Counted from the first letter of the stretch, positions 3,468 through 9,500 are shown. The stretch is DNA of 64,000 nt from the human T2T-CHM13v2.0 reference genome, Homo sapiens (GCF_009914755.1 NC_060932.1), one strand, 5' to 3'. Notes: generated by a model from the sequence alone, not told the origin. Translations and numbers: made by a program.

Positions 3468-3788
3468 TGTTGAACATTGCCCAAGTCCTGGGAGAGAAGT
3501 GGGTGCGGTCCGCTTCCTGTCCTCAATTTGCCCGCAGCGGCGGAGTGCACAGAGCAGGGAAAGGCAGCCCCAGAGGGATCCCGCCCTCCAGCATGCAGCA
3601 GACTGCTGGCCCAGTCCTGGCTCCAAGGGGTGCTGTGTGGGCCCAAGCAAGTTGACCAACCTCCCTGAACCTTAATTTAATCCTAGGTAGCCCAATTCCA
3701 GTAGCCATTATAGGACTGCCCTGCAGGGACAGTTACTTAACTCAGGAAAAGCAACCTAGCTCCAAGTTTAGCAACCGGGAGTTCCAGT

Positions 3789-3949
3789 TGATTCCATTAG
3801 CGCACCCCCTGAGGCATTCCCAAGCTGGAGTCTGGTGGAAGATGAGGCTCAGTGTGATTGGACTGAAGCACCAACCTATCAAGGAGAAGTCCCACCCAGT
3901 CTGCCCTGTGCCTATATAAAGGCGACAAGTGGCGGCCGCAGCACTCATT
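3789..3949 (+). promoter_or_regulatory. Putative Pol II promoter: DUX4-type site, inverted CCAAT, CACCC box, TATA and Inr
   Basis: TGATTCCATTA at 3789-3799, ATTGG at 3857-3861, CCCACCC at 3891-3897, TATATAAA at 3913-3920, and CTCATT (BBCABW Inr) at 3944-3949, about 30 bp after the TATA box. Confidence 0.7.
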
Positions 3950-3950
3950 G

Positions 3951-4364
3951 AAGCCGCCAGTTGGGAGAGGAGCAGAGCCAGGCCGGTGCTCCCGAAGGCA
4001 GCAAGATGTTGCGAGCCACAGCTCCCTGCTGGTTCCCCCCTGGATACCCAGAAGCTAAGAAGGTGGCCGAGGAGGCGGCCCTGGAGGCAAGCCGCCATTT
4101 GGGAGGGGAGCAGAGCCAGGCCGGTGCTCCCGAAGGCAGCAAGATGTTGCGAGCCACAGCTCCCTGCTGGTTCCGCCCTGGATACCCAGAAGCTAAGAAG
4201 GTGGCCAAGGAGGCGGCCCCGGAGGCAAGCCGCCATTTGGGAGCGGAGCAGAGCCCGGCCGGTGCTCCCGAAGGCAGCAAGATGTTGCGAGCCACAGCTC
4301 CCTGCTGGTTCCCACCTGGATACCCAGAAGCTAAGAAGGTGGCCGAGGAGGCGGCCCTCGAGGC
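3951..4364 (+). repeat. 138-bp minisatellite x3 covering the 5' UTR and N-terminus (also 16141-16554, 28331-28744, 51282-51695, 63471-63884)
   Basis: AAGCCGCCA.TTGGGAG begins at 3951, 4089 and 4227; in-frame ATGs at 4006, 4144 and 4282. Confidence 0.95.
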
Positions 4365-6158: not shown

Positions 6159-6356
6159 CCCACTCCCGGTCCCCCGGAATCCCTGCCGCGGCCCCTCGGG
6201 CCTGTCCACATCCCTCTGCCCCTCCCAGACCTCTGTCCTTCCACCAATCGCCTCCCGCAGCCCCGAGCCGCCACTCCCAGTCCCCCGAGTCCCTGCCGCG
6301 CGCCCTCGCGCCTGTCCACATCCCTCTGCCCATCCGAGACCTCTGTCCTTACACCA
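6159..6356 (+). repeat. C-rich ~110-bp tandem duplication downstream of the stop codon (all copies)
   Basis: CCTGTCCACATCCCTCTGCCC..AGACCTCTGTCCTT occurs at 6201 and 6311. Confidence 0.85.
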
Positions 6357-6484
6357 CTAGCCACCCCACGTGGGACTTCCATGGCTTCTGAGTACAAGGC
6401 CAGCCCCCCGGCCCACCAGCTTTCGGAATGCCTGCTTACCTCTTTTTCTGTAGAGGCACCACAGGGAGGTGGGTGAAGCACTTC

Positions 6485-6597
6485 GGCTCTGGAGTTACAG
6501 ATCTGGGTTCAAGGCCAAATTCCACCACTTACTAGGTTTGTAATATTGGACAGATAACGTCTTTGCGCTTCTACCTTTTGGTCTTTAAAGTGTGATC
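6485..6597 (+). mobile_element. MIR 5' part; its 3' part continues at about 10270-10370 after the L1 insertion
   Basis: GGCTCTGGAG..CTGGGTTC..CCACTTACTAG before the L1, and GCACATAGTAGGTGTTCAATTAATGTTAACTAT after it. Confidence 0.65.
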
Positions 6598-9500
6598 AAA
6601 AGAGACTTAGACTCCCACATAGTAATAATAATAATAATGGCAAACTTAACACCCCACTGTCAACATTAGACACACCAACGAGACAGAAAGTTAAAAAAGG
6701 ATATCCGGGAATTGAGCTCAGCTCTGCACCAAGTGGACCTAGGAGACATCTACAGAACGCTCCACCCCAAATCAACAGAATATACATTCTTCTCAGCACC
6801 ACATCACACTTATTTCCACATTGACCACATAGTTGGAAGTAAAGCACTCCTCAGTAAAAGTAAAATAACAGAAATTATTACAAACGGTCTCTCAGACCAC
6901 ATTGCAATCACACTAGACCTCAGGATTGAGAAACTCACTCAAAACCGCACAACTGCATGGAAACCGGACAAGCTGCTCCTGAATGAGTACTGGGTACATA
7001 ACGAAATGAAGGCAGAAATAAAGATATTCTCTGAAAGCAATGAGAACAAAGACACAACATACCAGAATCTCTGGGACACATTTAAAGCAGTGTGTAGAGG
7101 GAAATTTATAGCACTAAATGCCCACAAGGGAAAGCAGGAAAGATCAAAAATGCATACCCTAACATCACCATTAAAAGGATGAGAGAAGCAAGAGCAAACA
7201 CATTCAAAAGCTAGCAGAAGGCAAGAAATAACTAAGATCCGAGCAGAACTGAAGGAGATAGAGACCCAAAAAACCCTTCAAAAAATCAATGAATCCAGGA
7301 GCGGGTTTTTTGAAACCATCAACAAAATTGATAGACCACTAGCAAGACTATTAAAGAATGAAAGAAAGAAGAATCAAGCAGATGCAATAAAAAATGATAA
7401 AGGGGATATCACCACTGATCCCACAGAAGTACAAACTACCATGAGAGAATACTGTCAACACCTCTAGGCAAACAAACTCGAAAATCTAGAAGAAATGAAT
7501 AAATTCCTGGACACATGCAACCTCCCCAGAGTAAACCAGGAAGAAGTTGAATGCCTGAATAGACCAATAACAGGCTCTGAAATTGAGGCAATAATTAATA
7601 GCCTATCAAGCAATAAAACTCCAGGACCAGACGGATTCACAGCCGAATTCTACCAGAAGTACAAGGAGGAGCTGGTACCATTCCTTCGGAAACTATTCCA
7701 ATCAACAGAAAAAGAGGGAATCCTCCCTATCTCATTTTATGAGGCCAGCATCATCCTGATCCCAAAGGCTGAGAGAGACACAACCAACAAAGAGAATTTT
7801 CGGCCCATATCCCTGAGGAACACCGATGGAAAAATCCTCCATAAAATGCTGGCAAACCGAATCCAGCAGCACATCAAAGAGCTTATCCATTATGATCAAG
7901 TGGGCTTCATCCCTGACATGCAAGGCTGATCCAACATATGCAAATCAATAAACATAATCCAGCATATAATCGGAACCAAAGACAGAAACCGCGTGATTAT
8001 CTCAACAGATGCAGAAAAGGCCTTTGACAAAATTCAACAGCCTTTCATGCCAAAAACTCTCAATAAATTAGGTACTGATGGGACATACCTCAAAATAATA
8101 AGGGCTATTTAGGGCAAACCCACAGCCAATATCATACTGAATGGGCAAAAAGTGGAAGCATTCCCTTTGCAAACTGCCACAAGACAGGGGTGCCCTCTCT
8201 CACCACTCCTATTCAACATAGTGTTGGAACTTCTGGCCAGGGCAATCAGGCAGGAGAAAGAAATAAAGAGTAATCAATTAGGAAAAGAGGAAGTCAAATT
8301 GTCCCTGTTTGTAGATGACACGATTGAATATTTAGAAAACCCCATCGTCTCAGCCCAAAATCTCCTTAAGCTGATAAGCAACTTCAGCAAAGTCTCAGGA
8401 TACAAAATCGATGTGCAAAAATCACAAGCATTCTTATACACCAATAACAGGCAAACAGAGAGCCAAATCATGACTGAGCTCCCATTCACAATTGCTTCAA
8501 AGAGAATAAAATACTGAGGAATCCAACTAACAAGGGATGCGATGTGCGAAGGACCTCTTCAAGGAGAACTACAAACCACTGCTCCACGAAATAAAAGAGG
8601 ACACAAACCAATGGAAGAATATTCCATGCTCACGGTTAGGAAGAATCAGTATCGTGAAAATGGCCATACTGCCCAAGGTATATTATAGATCCAATGCCAT
8701 CCCCATCAAGCTACCAAGGACTTTCTTCACAGAATTGGAAAAAACTACTTGAAAGTTTACATGGAACCACAAAAGGGCCCCCACTGCCAAGATAATCCTA
8801 AGCCAAAAGAACAAAGTTGGAGGCATCAAGCTACCCGACTTCAAACTACACTACAAGCCTACAGTAACCAAACAGCATGCTGTTGGTTGCCTTTTTGGTT
8901 ACTGCAGACCAATGGAACAGAATAGAGCCCTCAGAAATAATACGACACATCTACAACCGTCGGATCTTTGACAAACCTGACAAAAACAAGAAATGGGGAA
9001 AGGATTCCCTATTTAATAAATGGTGCTGGGAAAACTGGCTAGCCATATGTCCGAAGGTGAAATTGGATCCCTTCCTTACACCTTATACAAAAGTTTATTC
9101 AAGACGGATGAAAGACTTAAATGTTACATCTTAAGCCATACAAACCCTAGGAGAAAACCTAGGCAATACCATTCAGGACATAGGTATGGGCAAGGACCTC
9201 ATGTCTAAAACGCCAAAAGCAAAGGCAACAAAAGCCAATATTGACAAACGGCATCTAATTACACTAAAGAGTTTCTGCACAGCTAAAGAAACTCCCATCA
9301 GAGTGAACAGGCATGCTACAGAAAGGGAGAACATTTTTGCAATCTACTCATCTGACAAAGGGCTAATATCCAGAATCTACTAAGAACTCAAACAGAGTTA
9401 CAAGAAAAACCAAACAACCCCATCAACAAGTGCGGGAAGGATATGAAGAGACACTTCTAAAAAGAAGACATTTATGCAGCCAACAGATACATGAAAAAAT

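What the first reader, a model, noticed from the sequence alone, without database searches (positions are those of the whole stretch)
3601..6733. Variant desert over an enzymatically intact 'pseudogene': promoter, ORF and 3' flank are nearly identical in six copies while the adjacent L1 varies
Seen: across the six copies (copy 6 is cut by the window end) I find only two SNVs in this ~3.1-kb segment (17081 L>V; 61964 synonymous) plus one in-frame 138-bp contraction. The alternative-frame ORFs in the track are also identical, so synonymous sites are invariant too. In contrast, the neighbouring 3.7-kb L1 shows more than 25 distinct amino-acid-level differences between copies in the ORF track. All DEDDh residues are intact (D505, E507, D588, H637, D642 from the ATG at 4006), as are the Cys/His cluster and the RKRK patch. 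Known: REXO1L copies are commonly labelled pseudogenes. Inference: this is a dosage-amplified functional exonuclease retrogene kept uniform by selection and/or a conversion hotspot centred on the CpG island. Invariance at synonymous sites favours localised conversion or a sweep over protein-level selection alone.
Basis: partly seen in the sequence, partly recalled or inferred. Interest (0 to 1): 0.85.

Follow-up and report, generated by a model that had tools for sequence, protein, structure and literature searches.

The report
Uniform gene block in REXO1L1 macrosatellite
In the large human chromosome 8 tandem repeat, the 3.3-kb stretch that carries an intact exonuclease retrogene (GOR/REXO1L1) is several times more uniform between repeat copies than the rest of each 12-kb unit, probably because copying between units homogenises the gene part faster than the spacer.

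Summary
In the six window copies, unit positions 1-3133 carry two true SNVs plus one in-frame 138-bp contraction. The other 9 kb of the unit carries 121 variable columns. In 13 copies taken by position, diversity is 0.46/kb in the block and 5.4/kb elsewhere. In 44 of the 72 CHM13 copies it is 0.9/kb against 6-8/kb, and every block variant is rare, at most 5 of 44. So this is a flat-bottomed trough, not an absolute desert.

The gene is an intronless copy of the 3' half of REXO1. Its DEDDh residues are intact. All 72 copies have open frames. Open reading frames exist across anthropoids, and the exonuclease domain evolves about four times slower than the N-terminus.

Units are mosaics with little linkage between variants. 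Human-chimpanzee protein divergence is 4%, so the block is neither mutationally cold nor held still by constraint.

Best reading: concerted evolution by inter-unit gene conversion runs faster in the gene block, or swept it recently. Whether selection or an intrinsic hotspot drives this is unresolved. The array and gene are known; I found no description of the trough in four full-text searches.

The parts
3451..6733 (+). Low-diversity block, copy U1 (unit -150..3133): promoter region, intronless GOR/REXO1L ORF and 3' flank. It is GC- and CpG-rich (61% GC, 53 CpG/kb). Equivalent blocks lie at 15641-18923 (+), 27831-31113 (+), 36861-40005 (-), 48913-52195 (-) and 61102-64000 (-, cut by the window end).
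   Evidence: pi is 0.46-0.91/kb against 5.4-8.3/kb outside, and no block variant exceeds 5 of 44 copies. Composition.
4006..6033 (+). 675-aa ORF (putative exonuclease GOR). Other copies: 16196-18223 (+, L296V), 28386-30413 (+), 37561-39450 (-, 629 aa), 49613-51640 (-), 61802-63829 (-, one synonymous change).
   Evidence: Only 16196-18223 is annotated as protein-coding in the hub's gene table.
3951..4364 (+). Three tandem 138-bp (46-codon) repeats. Each contains the ancestral start codon and 55 bp of former 5' UTR, and together they give a 92-aa N-terminal extension. The copy at 37561-39450 has two repeats.
   Evidence: 95.7-97% self-matches offset by 138 or 276 bp. (eight other anthropoid proteins start at human M93). 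(frames of 693 aa in 62 copies, 647 aa in 7, 601 aa in 1).
5488..5985 (+). DEDDh 3'-5' exonuclease domain (aa 495-660), with D505, E507, D588, H637 and D642.
   Evidence: SDN1 5z9x E = 1.6e-27; ISG20 1wlj E = 1.6e-15..
4846..5223 (+). EloA-BP1 (PF15870) homology, the REXO1-type middle domain. It lacks model positions 79-122, which in REXO1 lie on a separate exon.
3911..3925 (+). TATA-like element (cctatataaaggcga) about 80 bp upstream of the first ATG.
   Evidence: Read directly from the sequence. Promoter function was not tested.
6734..15790 (+). High-diversity remainder of the unit (spacer). It includes a 5'-truncated, degenerate L1 ORF2 that starts near 6640, with reverse-transcriptase pieces at 7468-8514.
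   Evidence: (165 segregating sites in 9059 bp among 10-13 copies).
32496..32502 (.). Junction where the array switches from + to - orientation. Unit position 4522 on + meets unit position 7498 on -.
   Evidence: Five alternating domains across the array, as reported in PMC8099727.

Best explanation
The segment is the gene block of the 12.19-kb REXO1L1/GOR macrosatellite unit (the 8q21.2 VNTR). Each unit carries an old, intronless copy of the 3' half of REXO1 that still encodes a DEDDh exonuclease.

Units exchange short stretches with one another by gene conversion or unequal exchange, so every unit is a mosaic. In the GC/CpG-rich gene block (promoter, ORF and 3' flank, about 3.3 kb) this homogenisation has gone several times further than in the spacer. 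All copies there trace back to a much more recent common sequence and differ only by young, rare mutations. The spacer still holds old variants at intermediate frequency.

Shown: the trough, its extent across the array, the mosaic structure, the intact and conserved gene, and the fast divergence between species.

Inferred: that conversion is the agent. Also inferred is that the block is favoured either because new gene variants are driven through the array by selection on a fast-evolving functional gene, or because the block is intrinsically conversion-prone or subject to GC-biased conversion.
For: 1. The trough is real and array-wide.
- 13 copies taken by position: 6 against 165 segregating sites, pi 0.46 against 5.4/kb.
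- 44 of 72 copies: pi 0.91/kb against 8.3 and 6.3/kb in the flanks.
- 11 copies not pre-selected for similarity: 1.86 against 8.9 and 7.1/kb.

2. The frequency spectrum differs. 38 of 38 block variants have a minor count of 5 or less, against 35 of 45 in the flanks (Fisher P = 0.0015). Tajima's D is -2.42 in the block and -1.09 and -1.34 in the flanks.

3. All site classes lack common variants: 5' non-coding, coding (15 nonsynonymous and 9 synonymous variant sites, all rare) and 3' non-coding.

4. Units are mosaics. Mean r2 is 0.09-0.14 between flank variants 200-600 bp apart and 0.03 across the block. Rare block variants are shared by copies in different, oppositely oriented domains that have different flank haplotypes. 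L296V is in 6 of 72 copies spread over three domains (confirmed by sequence in 3 copies).

5. The block is neither mutationally cold nor frozen by constraint. Human-chimpanzee GOR proteins differ at 23 of 581 residues (7.5% in the N-terminus, 1.8% in the exonuclease domain). Human-New World monkey proteins differ by about 20%.

6. A new block variant has already spread through the array. The 138-bp triplication, absent from eight other anthropoid proteins, is in 62 of 72 copies.

7. The gene is functional-looking. It is intronless against 10 parental exons, and its DEDDh residues are intact. All 72 copies have open frames, and 32 of the 66 copies scored are identical in protein. dN/dS against REXO1 is 0.31. 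The exonuclease domain evolves about four times slower than the N-terminus across anthropoids.
Against: - Only one haplotype (CHM13) was examined. Whole units were compared for 10-13 copies, and the block for 44 of 72. Thirty of those 44 were chosen by similarity inside the block, which biases its diversity downward. The 11 unselected copies show a smaller contrast, 4- to 5-fold.
- No conversion event was observed directly.
- The test for GC-biased conversion was not significant: mean minor count was 1.29 for strong-to-weak and 1.88 for weak-to-strong changes, P = 0.18.
- The PRDM9-like motif count is uninformative: 2 in the block and 1 in the spacer per unit.
- The sharp right edge at the L1 junction is not what variable conversion tracts would predict.
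- Evidence for purifying selection among current copies is weak. Nonsynonymous to synonymous is 8:7 outside the repeats (P about 0.08-0.12). Zero broken copies is not significantly fewer than the roughly 2 expected.
- Tajima's D was devised for population samples and is used here only descriptively.
- Species divergence was measured on predicted proteins, not on nucleotides, and no spacer divergence is available.
Confidence: 0.6

Rival explanations
1. Purifying selection on the protein alone keeps the copies uniform.
For: The catalytic domain is conserved across anthropoids (90-98% identity against 64-94% in the N-terminus). All five DEDDh residues are invariant. Among current variants the exonuclease domain has 1 nonsynonymous and 4 synonymous, and the ratio is 8:7 outside the repeats against about 2.5:1 expected. 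0 of 72 copies are broken.
Against: Synonymous sites and about 1.2 kb of non-coding sequence in the block also lack common variants. One change in one of 72 copies should be nearly invisible to selection. The protein evolves fast between species (4% human-chimpanzee). The nonsynonymous deficit is not significant (P about 0.1).
Confidence: 0.07
2. The block has an intrinsically lower mutation rate, for example through transcription-coupled repair or its chromatin state.
For: Singleton density is also about 2.3-fold lower in the block: 26 in 2870 bp against 19 in 917 bp. The block coincides with the roughly 3-kb part of each unit reported as methylated in CHM13, while the rest is hypomethylated (PMC8099727, passages read).
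Against: The block has five times the CpG density of its flanks (53 against 11 per kb), which should raise mutation input if it is methylated. Protein divergence between species is at or above my rough neutral expectation (the expectation uses genome-wide divergences that I recalled, not computed). The biggest deficit is in old, shared variants rather than new ones.
Confidence: 0.08
3. A chance shallow genealogy under uniform neutral concerted evolution.
For: Diversity is heterogeneous in the spacer too: 500-bp windows range from 1.6 to 12.9 per kb, and some 150-bp windows fall to 1.2 per kb.
Against: The six lowest of 24 windows are contiguous (P = 1.8e-4). Linkage decays within a few hundred bp, so a 3.3-kb flat-bottomed trough needs many independent shallow genealogies side by side. 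The trough also coincides with the gene block.
Confidence: 0.08
4. The spacer is unusually variable and the block is ordinary. Possible causes are mutagenic chromatin in the hypomethylated, CENP-A-permissive part, or ectopic conversion from dispersed L1 or other transposon copies.
For: Spacer diversity of about 0.54% is well above the typical human allelic diversity that I recall. Transition/transversion in the spacer is only 1.26 (0.93 in unit 6801-12190).
Against: Many spacer variants are at intermediate frequency (up to 21 of 44), which indicates age rather than rate. The L1 part (76 sites in 3667 bp) and the non-L1 part (89 in 5390 bp) are similarly variable. The block shows the same low transition/transversion ratio (21:17), so the spectrum does not separate the two.
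Confidence: 0.08
5. Assembly or polishing artefact that homogenised the GC-rich block.
For: Only one assembly was examined, and near-identical repeats are hard to polish.
Against: The block still carries 38 variant sites among 44 copies. Twelve of them are shared by two or more copies, some in different domains. The spacer variants that anchor each unit are retained. The VNTR assembly was validated by Southern blot, fibre-FISH and read coverage according to PMC8099727.
Confidence: 0.04

Closest known systems
Human 8q21.2 VNTR / REXO1L1 (GOR) macrosatellite, as described by Warburton 2008, Brahmachary 2014 and Logsdon 2021
   Same: It is this locus. The unit is 12.19 kb, with 72 gene-bearing copies in CHM13 against the published 67 full and 7 partial units. 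There are five domains of alternating orientation (PMC8099727). The low-diversity block coincides with the roughly 3-kb part reported as methylated in CHM13.
   Different: The passages I read call the gene a pseudogene and describe units only as more than 98.5% identical. None mentions the within-unit diversity trough. Searches found no such description. Tyson 2014 is not held, and no supplements were opened.
Ribosomal DNA and other tandem gene arrays under concerted evolution (gene region more uniform than the intergenic spacer)
   Same: There is a gene plus spacer in each unit. Within-array uniformity is far higher in the gene part, divergence between species is high, and variants are shared as mosaics.
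   Different: This is a protein-coding retrogene of unproven function. The uniform block extends over promoter and 3' flank, and the protein itself evolves fast. The rDNA comparison is recalled, not tested here.
D4Z4 / DUX4 macrosatellite (a retrogene ORF conserved inside a repeat once thought to be junk)
   Same: An intronless ORF is carried once per macrosatellite unit, the array is copy-number polymorphic, and the ORF is conserved across primates.
   Different: The protein family differs (DEDDh exonuclease against a double homeobox), the unit is much larger (12.19 kb against the roughly 3.3 kb listed in PMC2588610), and no disease mechanism is known. The DUX4 facts other than unit size are recalled.
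Interlocus gene conversion and the mutation spectrum of human segmental duplications (Vollger 2023, PMC10172114)
   Same: Excess transversions and few CpG transitions among paralogous variants. Transition/transversion is 1.24-1.26 here against 1.78 in duplications and 2.06 in unique DNA in that paper.
   Different: The ratio here is lower still, and the exchange is within one tandem array rather than between dispersed duplicates.
REXO1 (RNA exonuclease 1 homologue; Elongin A-binding protein)
   Same: The EloA-BP1 domain, the Cys/His region and the DEDDh exonuclease domain are shared, with 76.5% amino-acid identity over 387 codons.
   Different: REXO1L is intronless, lacks the N-terminal half, lacks one parental exon (Pfam model positions 79-122) and evolves about four times faster.

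Membership tests
DEDDh 3'-5' exonuclease (REXO1/Rex1 type) | Five catalytic residues (D, E, D, H, D) in the three Exo motifs | tested here: met
   D505, E507, D588, H637 and D642 align with the catalytic positions of ISG20 and SDN1. They are invariant in 9 of 9 anthropoid sequences, and the motifs are present in 44 of 44 sequenced copies. The catalytic numbering in ISG20 is recalled.
DEDDh 3'-5' exonuclease (REXO1/Rex1 type) | Significant sequence similarity of the whole domain to solved members | tested here: met
   SDN1 5z9x E = 1.6e-27 and ISG20 1wlj E = 1.6e-15 over residues 499-659.
DEDDh 3'-5' exonuclease (REXO1/Rex1 type) | Match to Pfam RNase_T (PF00929) | tested here: not met
   hmmscan at E <= 0.01 returned only EloA-BP1 PF15870. 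PF00929 is pre-computed for the gibbon orthologue and for non-mammalian REXO1, so this looks like a sensitivity issue of that model.
DEDDh 3'-5' exonuclease (REXO1/Rex1 type) | Nuclease activity | not testable with these tools
   Needs an in vitro assay.
Processed retrogene | No introns where the parent gene has them | tested here: met
   Residues 274-661 match ten separate pieces of chr19 REXO1 spread over 4.3 kb, but are contiguous in REXO1L.
Processed retrogene | Poly(A) remnant and target-site duplications | tested here: inconclusive
   Nucleotide homology to REXO1 ends 20 bp after the stop codon. Only an (AAT)n tract at window 6620-6637 abuts the L1. No target-site duplications were sought systematically.
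Pseudogene (the current label of most copies) | Disabling mutations (stops, frameshifts) or neutral evolution | tested here: not met
   72 of 72 copies have open stop-to-stop frames of 599-693 codons. 62 full-length matches have no stop. 44 of 44 sequenced copies have ATG-to-stop ORFs of 675, 673 or 629 aa. dN/dS against REXO1 is 0.31. The catalytic domain is constrained across anthropoids.
Tandem gene array under concerted evolution | Copies within a genome more alike than orthologues between species | tested here: met
   32 of 66 scored copies encode the identical protein and the rest differ by a few residues. Human and chimpanzee proteins differ at 23 of 581 residues. This is a protein-level comparison only.
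Tandem gene array under concerted evolution | Exchange between units (mosaic variant patterns) | tested here: met
   Low linkage within and across the block, with many recombinant haplotypes. No conversion event was observed directly.

The most novel reading that the evidence does not exclude
The GOR block is being driven through the array by recurrent, selection-backed sweeps. On this reading it is a fast-evolving multicopy exonuclease whose N-terminus is under positive selection: 7.5% human-chimpanzee amino-acid divergence, plus a 92-aa extension seen only in the human sequence that is now in 62 of 72 copies. The 8q21.2 macrosatellite would then be a functional ampliconic gene family, comparable to testis-ampliconic or host-defence gene arrays, rather than a pseudogene repeat. 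A bolder variant is that homogenisation is coupled to transcription or templated by RNA, which would explain why the trough follows the transcription unit.
Probability: 0.25. Interest if true: 0.7.

Novelty: new member of a known kind. Interest (0 to 1): 0.45.

Why it matters
[quoted passage not shown] If its gene block is homogenised separately from its spacer, the array becomes a natural system for measuring gene conversion and selection inside a human macrosatellite.

The evidence also argues that 'REXO1L1P' should be treated as about 70 intact copies per haplotype of a conserved, rapidly evolving exonuclease gene. That affects annotation, because only one of the six window copies is called protein-coding. 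It also affects how multi-mapping RNA and peptide data are handled, and how copy-number associations at 8q21.2 are read.

Tried and rejected
- Whole-array fetch. I worked with 30 loci, an 80-kb stretch, 10 kb of chr19 and 10 further copies.
- PRDM9-type 13-mer scan. It gave 15 matches in the window, which is 2 per block and 1 per spacer. Given the GC content this is not informative.
- GC-biased conversion test on allele frequencies: not significant (P = 0.18).
- Broken-copy deficit. With 5 indel events per 165 SNV sites in the spacer and a stop-gain fraction of about 3.4%, only about 2 broken copies are expected. Zero of 72 is therefore weak evidence.
- Ectopic conversion from other L1 copies as the source of spacer variation. 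Rejected because the non-L1 spacer is as variable as the L1 part, and the four common variants just inside the L1 occur in nearly all combinations.
- Pfam gave no RNase_T hit, so the domain was established through solved structures instead.
- The tree of short GOR-like proteins from other mammals did not resolve whether there was one ancient retrocopy or several (open forks and long branches).
Tyson 2014 is not held.
- No structure prediction, complex prediction or Rfam search was run. They would not bear on the diversity question.
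Full report
**What is in the window.** The window lies inside the 8q21.2 REXO1L1/GOR tandem array of T2T-CHM13. A 12,190-bp unit occurs as three copies on the + strand (unit starts at 3601, 15791 and 27981, preceded by a partial unit at 1-3600). 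Three copies on the - strand end at 39855, 52045 and beyond 64000. The orientation switches at about 32496-32502. Six ORFs of at least 300 aa are present: five of 675 aa and one of 629 aa.

**Check of the observation.**
- The flagged 3133-bp segment is identical in three copies (itself, 27981-31113 and 52045-48913). It differs by one base in two others, and it carries one in-frame 138-bp contraction in the sixth.
- The same copies differ from the reference unit over their aligned lengths as follows:

| Copy | Mismatches | Aligned bases |
|---|---|---|
| U2 | 45 | 12,189 |
| U5 | 53 | 12,190 |
| U6 | 54 | 11,956 |
| U4 | 33 | 7,010 |
| U3 | 9 | 4,522 |
| U0 | 5 | 3,600 |

- In the multiple alignment, 121 of the 127 non-deletion variable columns lie in unit 3134-12190.
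- Four apparent SNVs beside the contraction depend on where the gap is placed among the three 138-bp repeats. They disappear in a second alignment.

**Extension to the whole array.**
- The assembly could be searched. A Pfam EloA-BP1 search scored all 81 candidates and found 72 array copies between chr8:86,082,445 and 86,945,538, arranged in five domains of alternating orientation.
- I obtained whole units for a second stretch, chr8:86,240,001-86,320,000.
- I obtained the block with its flanks for 44 of the 72 copies.
- Thirty of these 44 came from a similarity search on the block itself and are biased towards uniformity. Four came by position, and ten were picked from copies that the similarity search had not scored.
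- In 13 copies taken by position, unit 1-3133 has 6 segregating sites (pi 0.46/kb). The remaining 9059 bp has 165 (pi 5.4/kb). The binomial P is 5e-15, and the six lowest of 24 500-bp windows are contiguous (P = 1.8e-4).

| Sample | Block (unit -150..3133, 138-bp repeats excluded) | Left flank | Right flank |
|---|---|---|---|
| 44 copies, pi per kb | 0.91 (38 sites in 2870 bp) | 8.3 | 6.3 |
| 11 unselected copies, pi per kb | 1.86 | 8.9 | 7.1 |
| 44 copies, Tajima's D | -2.42 | -1.09 | -1.34 |

- No block variant exceeds 5 of 44 copies, while 10 of 45 flank variants do (Fisher P = 0.0015).
- The profile is flat-bottomed. The left edge is graded over about 600 bp. The right edge is sharp and lies about 100 bp inside a 5'-truncated L1 that abuts the gene's 3' flank.
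- So the 'desert' is a 5- to 10-fold trough that contains only young, rare variants.

**What the gene is.**
- The 675-aa product matches Pfam EloA-BP1. Over residues 499-659 it matches the solved DEDDh exonucleases SDN1 (E = 1.6e-27) and ISG20 (E = 1.6e-15).
- D505, E507, D588, H637 and D642 sit at the catalytic positions.
- Residues 274-661 match ten separate pieces of REXO1 on chr19 at 54-81% identity, whereas they are contiguous in REXO1L. So REXO1L is an intronless retrocopy of the 3' half of REXO1.
- It also lacks one parental exon, corresponding to Pfam model positions 79-122.
- Pairwise dN/dS against human REXO1 is 0.31 (dN 0.147, dS 0.477, 387 codons).
- In a protein tree the GOR lineage is about four times longer than the REXO1 lineage. 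If dS is split equally, this implies a ratio of roughly 0.5 on the GOR branch.

**Is it a decayed pseudogene?**
- No. All 72 copies have open stop-to-stop frames: 693 codons in 62, 647 in 7, and 691, 601 and 599 in one each.
- A search with the protein scored 66 copies. All 62 full-length copies lack stops, and 32 of them encode exactly the same protein.
- The '1 TGA' flag on three two-repeat copies is an alignment effect. One of them (L019) has a clean 629-aa ORF.
- All 44 sequenced copies have ATG-to-stop ORFs of 675 aa (39 copies), 629 aa (4) or 673 aa (1), with the catalytic motifs present.
- Predicted orthologues with ORFs exist in chimpanzee, gorilla, gibbon, one unnamed source and four New World monkeys, at 96-79% identity.

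| Comparison | N-terminus (aa 93-280) | Middle (aa 281-494) | Exonuclease (aa 495-660) |
|---|---|---|---|
| Human vs New World monkeys, identity | 64-66% | 84-86% | 90-92% |
| Human vs chimpanzee, identity | 92.5% | 97.2% | 98.2% |

- All five catalytic residues are invariant.
- This is long-term constraint on the catalytic part of a protein that otherwise evolves fast.
- Published support for expression is thin. One peptide was reported in melanoma samples (PMC7320927), and RT-PCR signals were reported in cell lines (PMC4422118). I read only the matching passages of both.

**Why the block is uniform.** Four observations narrow the options.
1. Non-coding and synonymous sites also lack common variants. 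Selection on one of 72 copies must be feeble. Protein-level selection alone therefore fails. Among current coding variants outside the repeats, the nonsynonymous to synonymous ratio is 8:7 against about 2.5:1 expected. This is only a hint of constraint (P about 0.1).
2. Units are mosaics. Mean r2 is 0.09-0.14 between flank variants a few hundred bp apart and 0.03 across the block. Rare block variants occur on different flank backgrounds in different, oppositely oriented domains. This points to frequent short exchanges between units. It also makes a 3.3-kb run of shallow genealogies unlikely by chance.
3. The block is not slow-evolving. Human and chimpanzee proteins differ at 23 of 581 residues. 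That is at or above what I estimate for neutral change from recalled genome-wide divergence. CpG density is five times that of the flanks. Low mutation or blanket constraint would lower divergence as well as diversity.
4. A structural novelty has already spread through the array. It is the triplication of a 138-bp segment that contains the start codon, and it is absent from the eight other anthropoid proteins. It is present in 62 of 72 copies, with two repeats in 7.

Together these favour faster or more recent homogenisation of the gene block by inter-unit conversion. I could not decide between selection-driven sweeps and an intrinsic hotspot or GC-biased conversion. The frequency test for GC bias was not significant, and the PRDM9-motif count is uninformative.

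**Relation to what is known.**
- The array, its copy-number range, its five domains and the methylation of the roughly 3-kb gene part are published (PMC8099727, PMC2588610 and PMC4063668; passages read).
- A 2025 preprint describes the unit as a composite of LINEs, SINEs, DNA transposons and a REXO1L1 pseudogene.
- Brahmachary 2014 reports about 22 copies in macaque and 400-860 in African apes, so the array is old.
- I found no description of the within-unit diversity trough. The searches were 'REXO1L1' (40 papers, 30 listed), six name variants (164 papers, 40 listed), '8q21.2' with 'VNTR' (5 papers) and a mixed search. Tyson 2014 is not held, and no supplements were opened.
- The pattern parallels gene-versus-spacer uniformity in other tandem gene arrays. 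I therefore rate it a new member of a known kind.

**Limits.**
- Only one haplotype was examined.
- 44 of 72 copies were sequenced for the block and 10-13 for whole units.
- Species comparisons rest on predicted proteins only.
- Neither conversion nor protein function was observed directly.

Noticed in passing
window 3951-4364 (and the same place in each unit): The first 92 residues of the human protein come from a tandem triplication of a 138-bp segment that includes the ancestral ATG and 55 bp of former 5' UTR. Eight other anthropoid GOR proteins start at human M93. Several 'SNVs' in repeat 2 (for example K68E, P72L, R57P) change it to the residue found in repeats 1 and 3, which suggests exchange between the repeats.
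   Followed up: partly
G000 chr8:86,811,909-86,908,970 (outside the window, last domain): Two-repeat (647-codon frame) and three-repeat (693-codon frame) copies alternate, with spacings of 12,052 and 12,189 bp. This suggests a two-unit higher-order repeat in that domain.
   Followed up: no
window 32496-32502; also chr8:86,510,540-86,519,829: The + to - orientation switch joins unit position 4522 to unit position 7498. The same anchor spacing (9,289 bp) occurs at two separate + to - switches in the array, so the junction itself seems to have been duplicated.
   Followed up: no
whole unit, e.g. window 3601-15790: Variants between units have an unusually low transition/transversion ratio: 1.26 in the spacer, 0.93 in unit 6801-12190, and 21:17 in the block. 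Only 5 of 38 block variants are CpG transitions despite 53 CpG/kb. The ratio is lower than the 1.78 reported for segmental duplications (PMC10172114).
   Followed up: partly
window 4006-6033, 28386-30413, 49613-51640, 61802-63829, 37561-39450: Only the copy at 16196-18223 is annotated as protein-coding in the hub's gene table. The other five window copies have the same or nearly the same intact ORF but carry no gene model, and nearby array copies are labelled pseudogenes.
   Followed up: yes
G000 chr9:27,274,085-27,282,603 (-): Two exon-like matches to the EloA-BP1 domain lie on chromosome 9, outside REXO1 and the array. They may belong to another REXO1-related gene.
   Followed up: no
proteins P0146, P0161, P0163, P0166, P0168, P0171, P0174, P0231: Short (550-650 aa) GOR-like REXO1 relatives on long branches occur in hare, beaver, squirrel, bats and strepsirrhines. 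The retrocopy may therefore be much older than anthropoids, or it may have arisen repeatedly. The tree did not resolve this.
   Followed up: partly
window 4846-5223: REXO1L lacks the part of the EloA-BP1 domain (Pfam model positions 79-122) that REXO1 encodes on a separate exon at chr19:1,790,323-1,790,445. This fits a template mRNA that skipped the exon, or a later deletion.
   Followed up: partly
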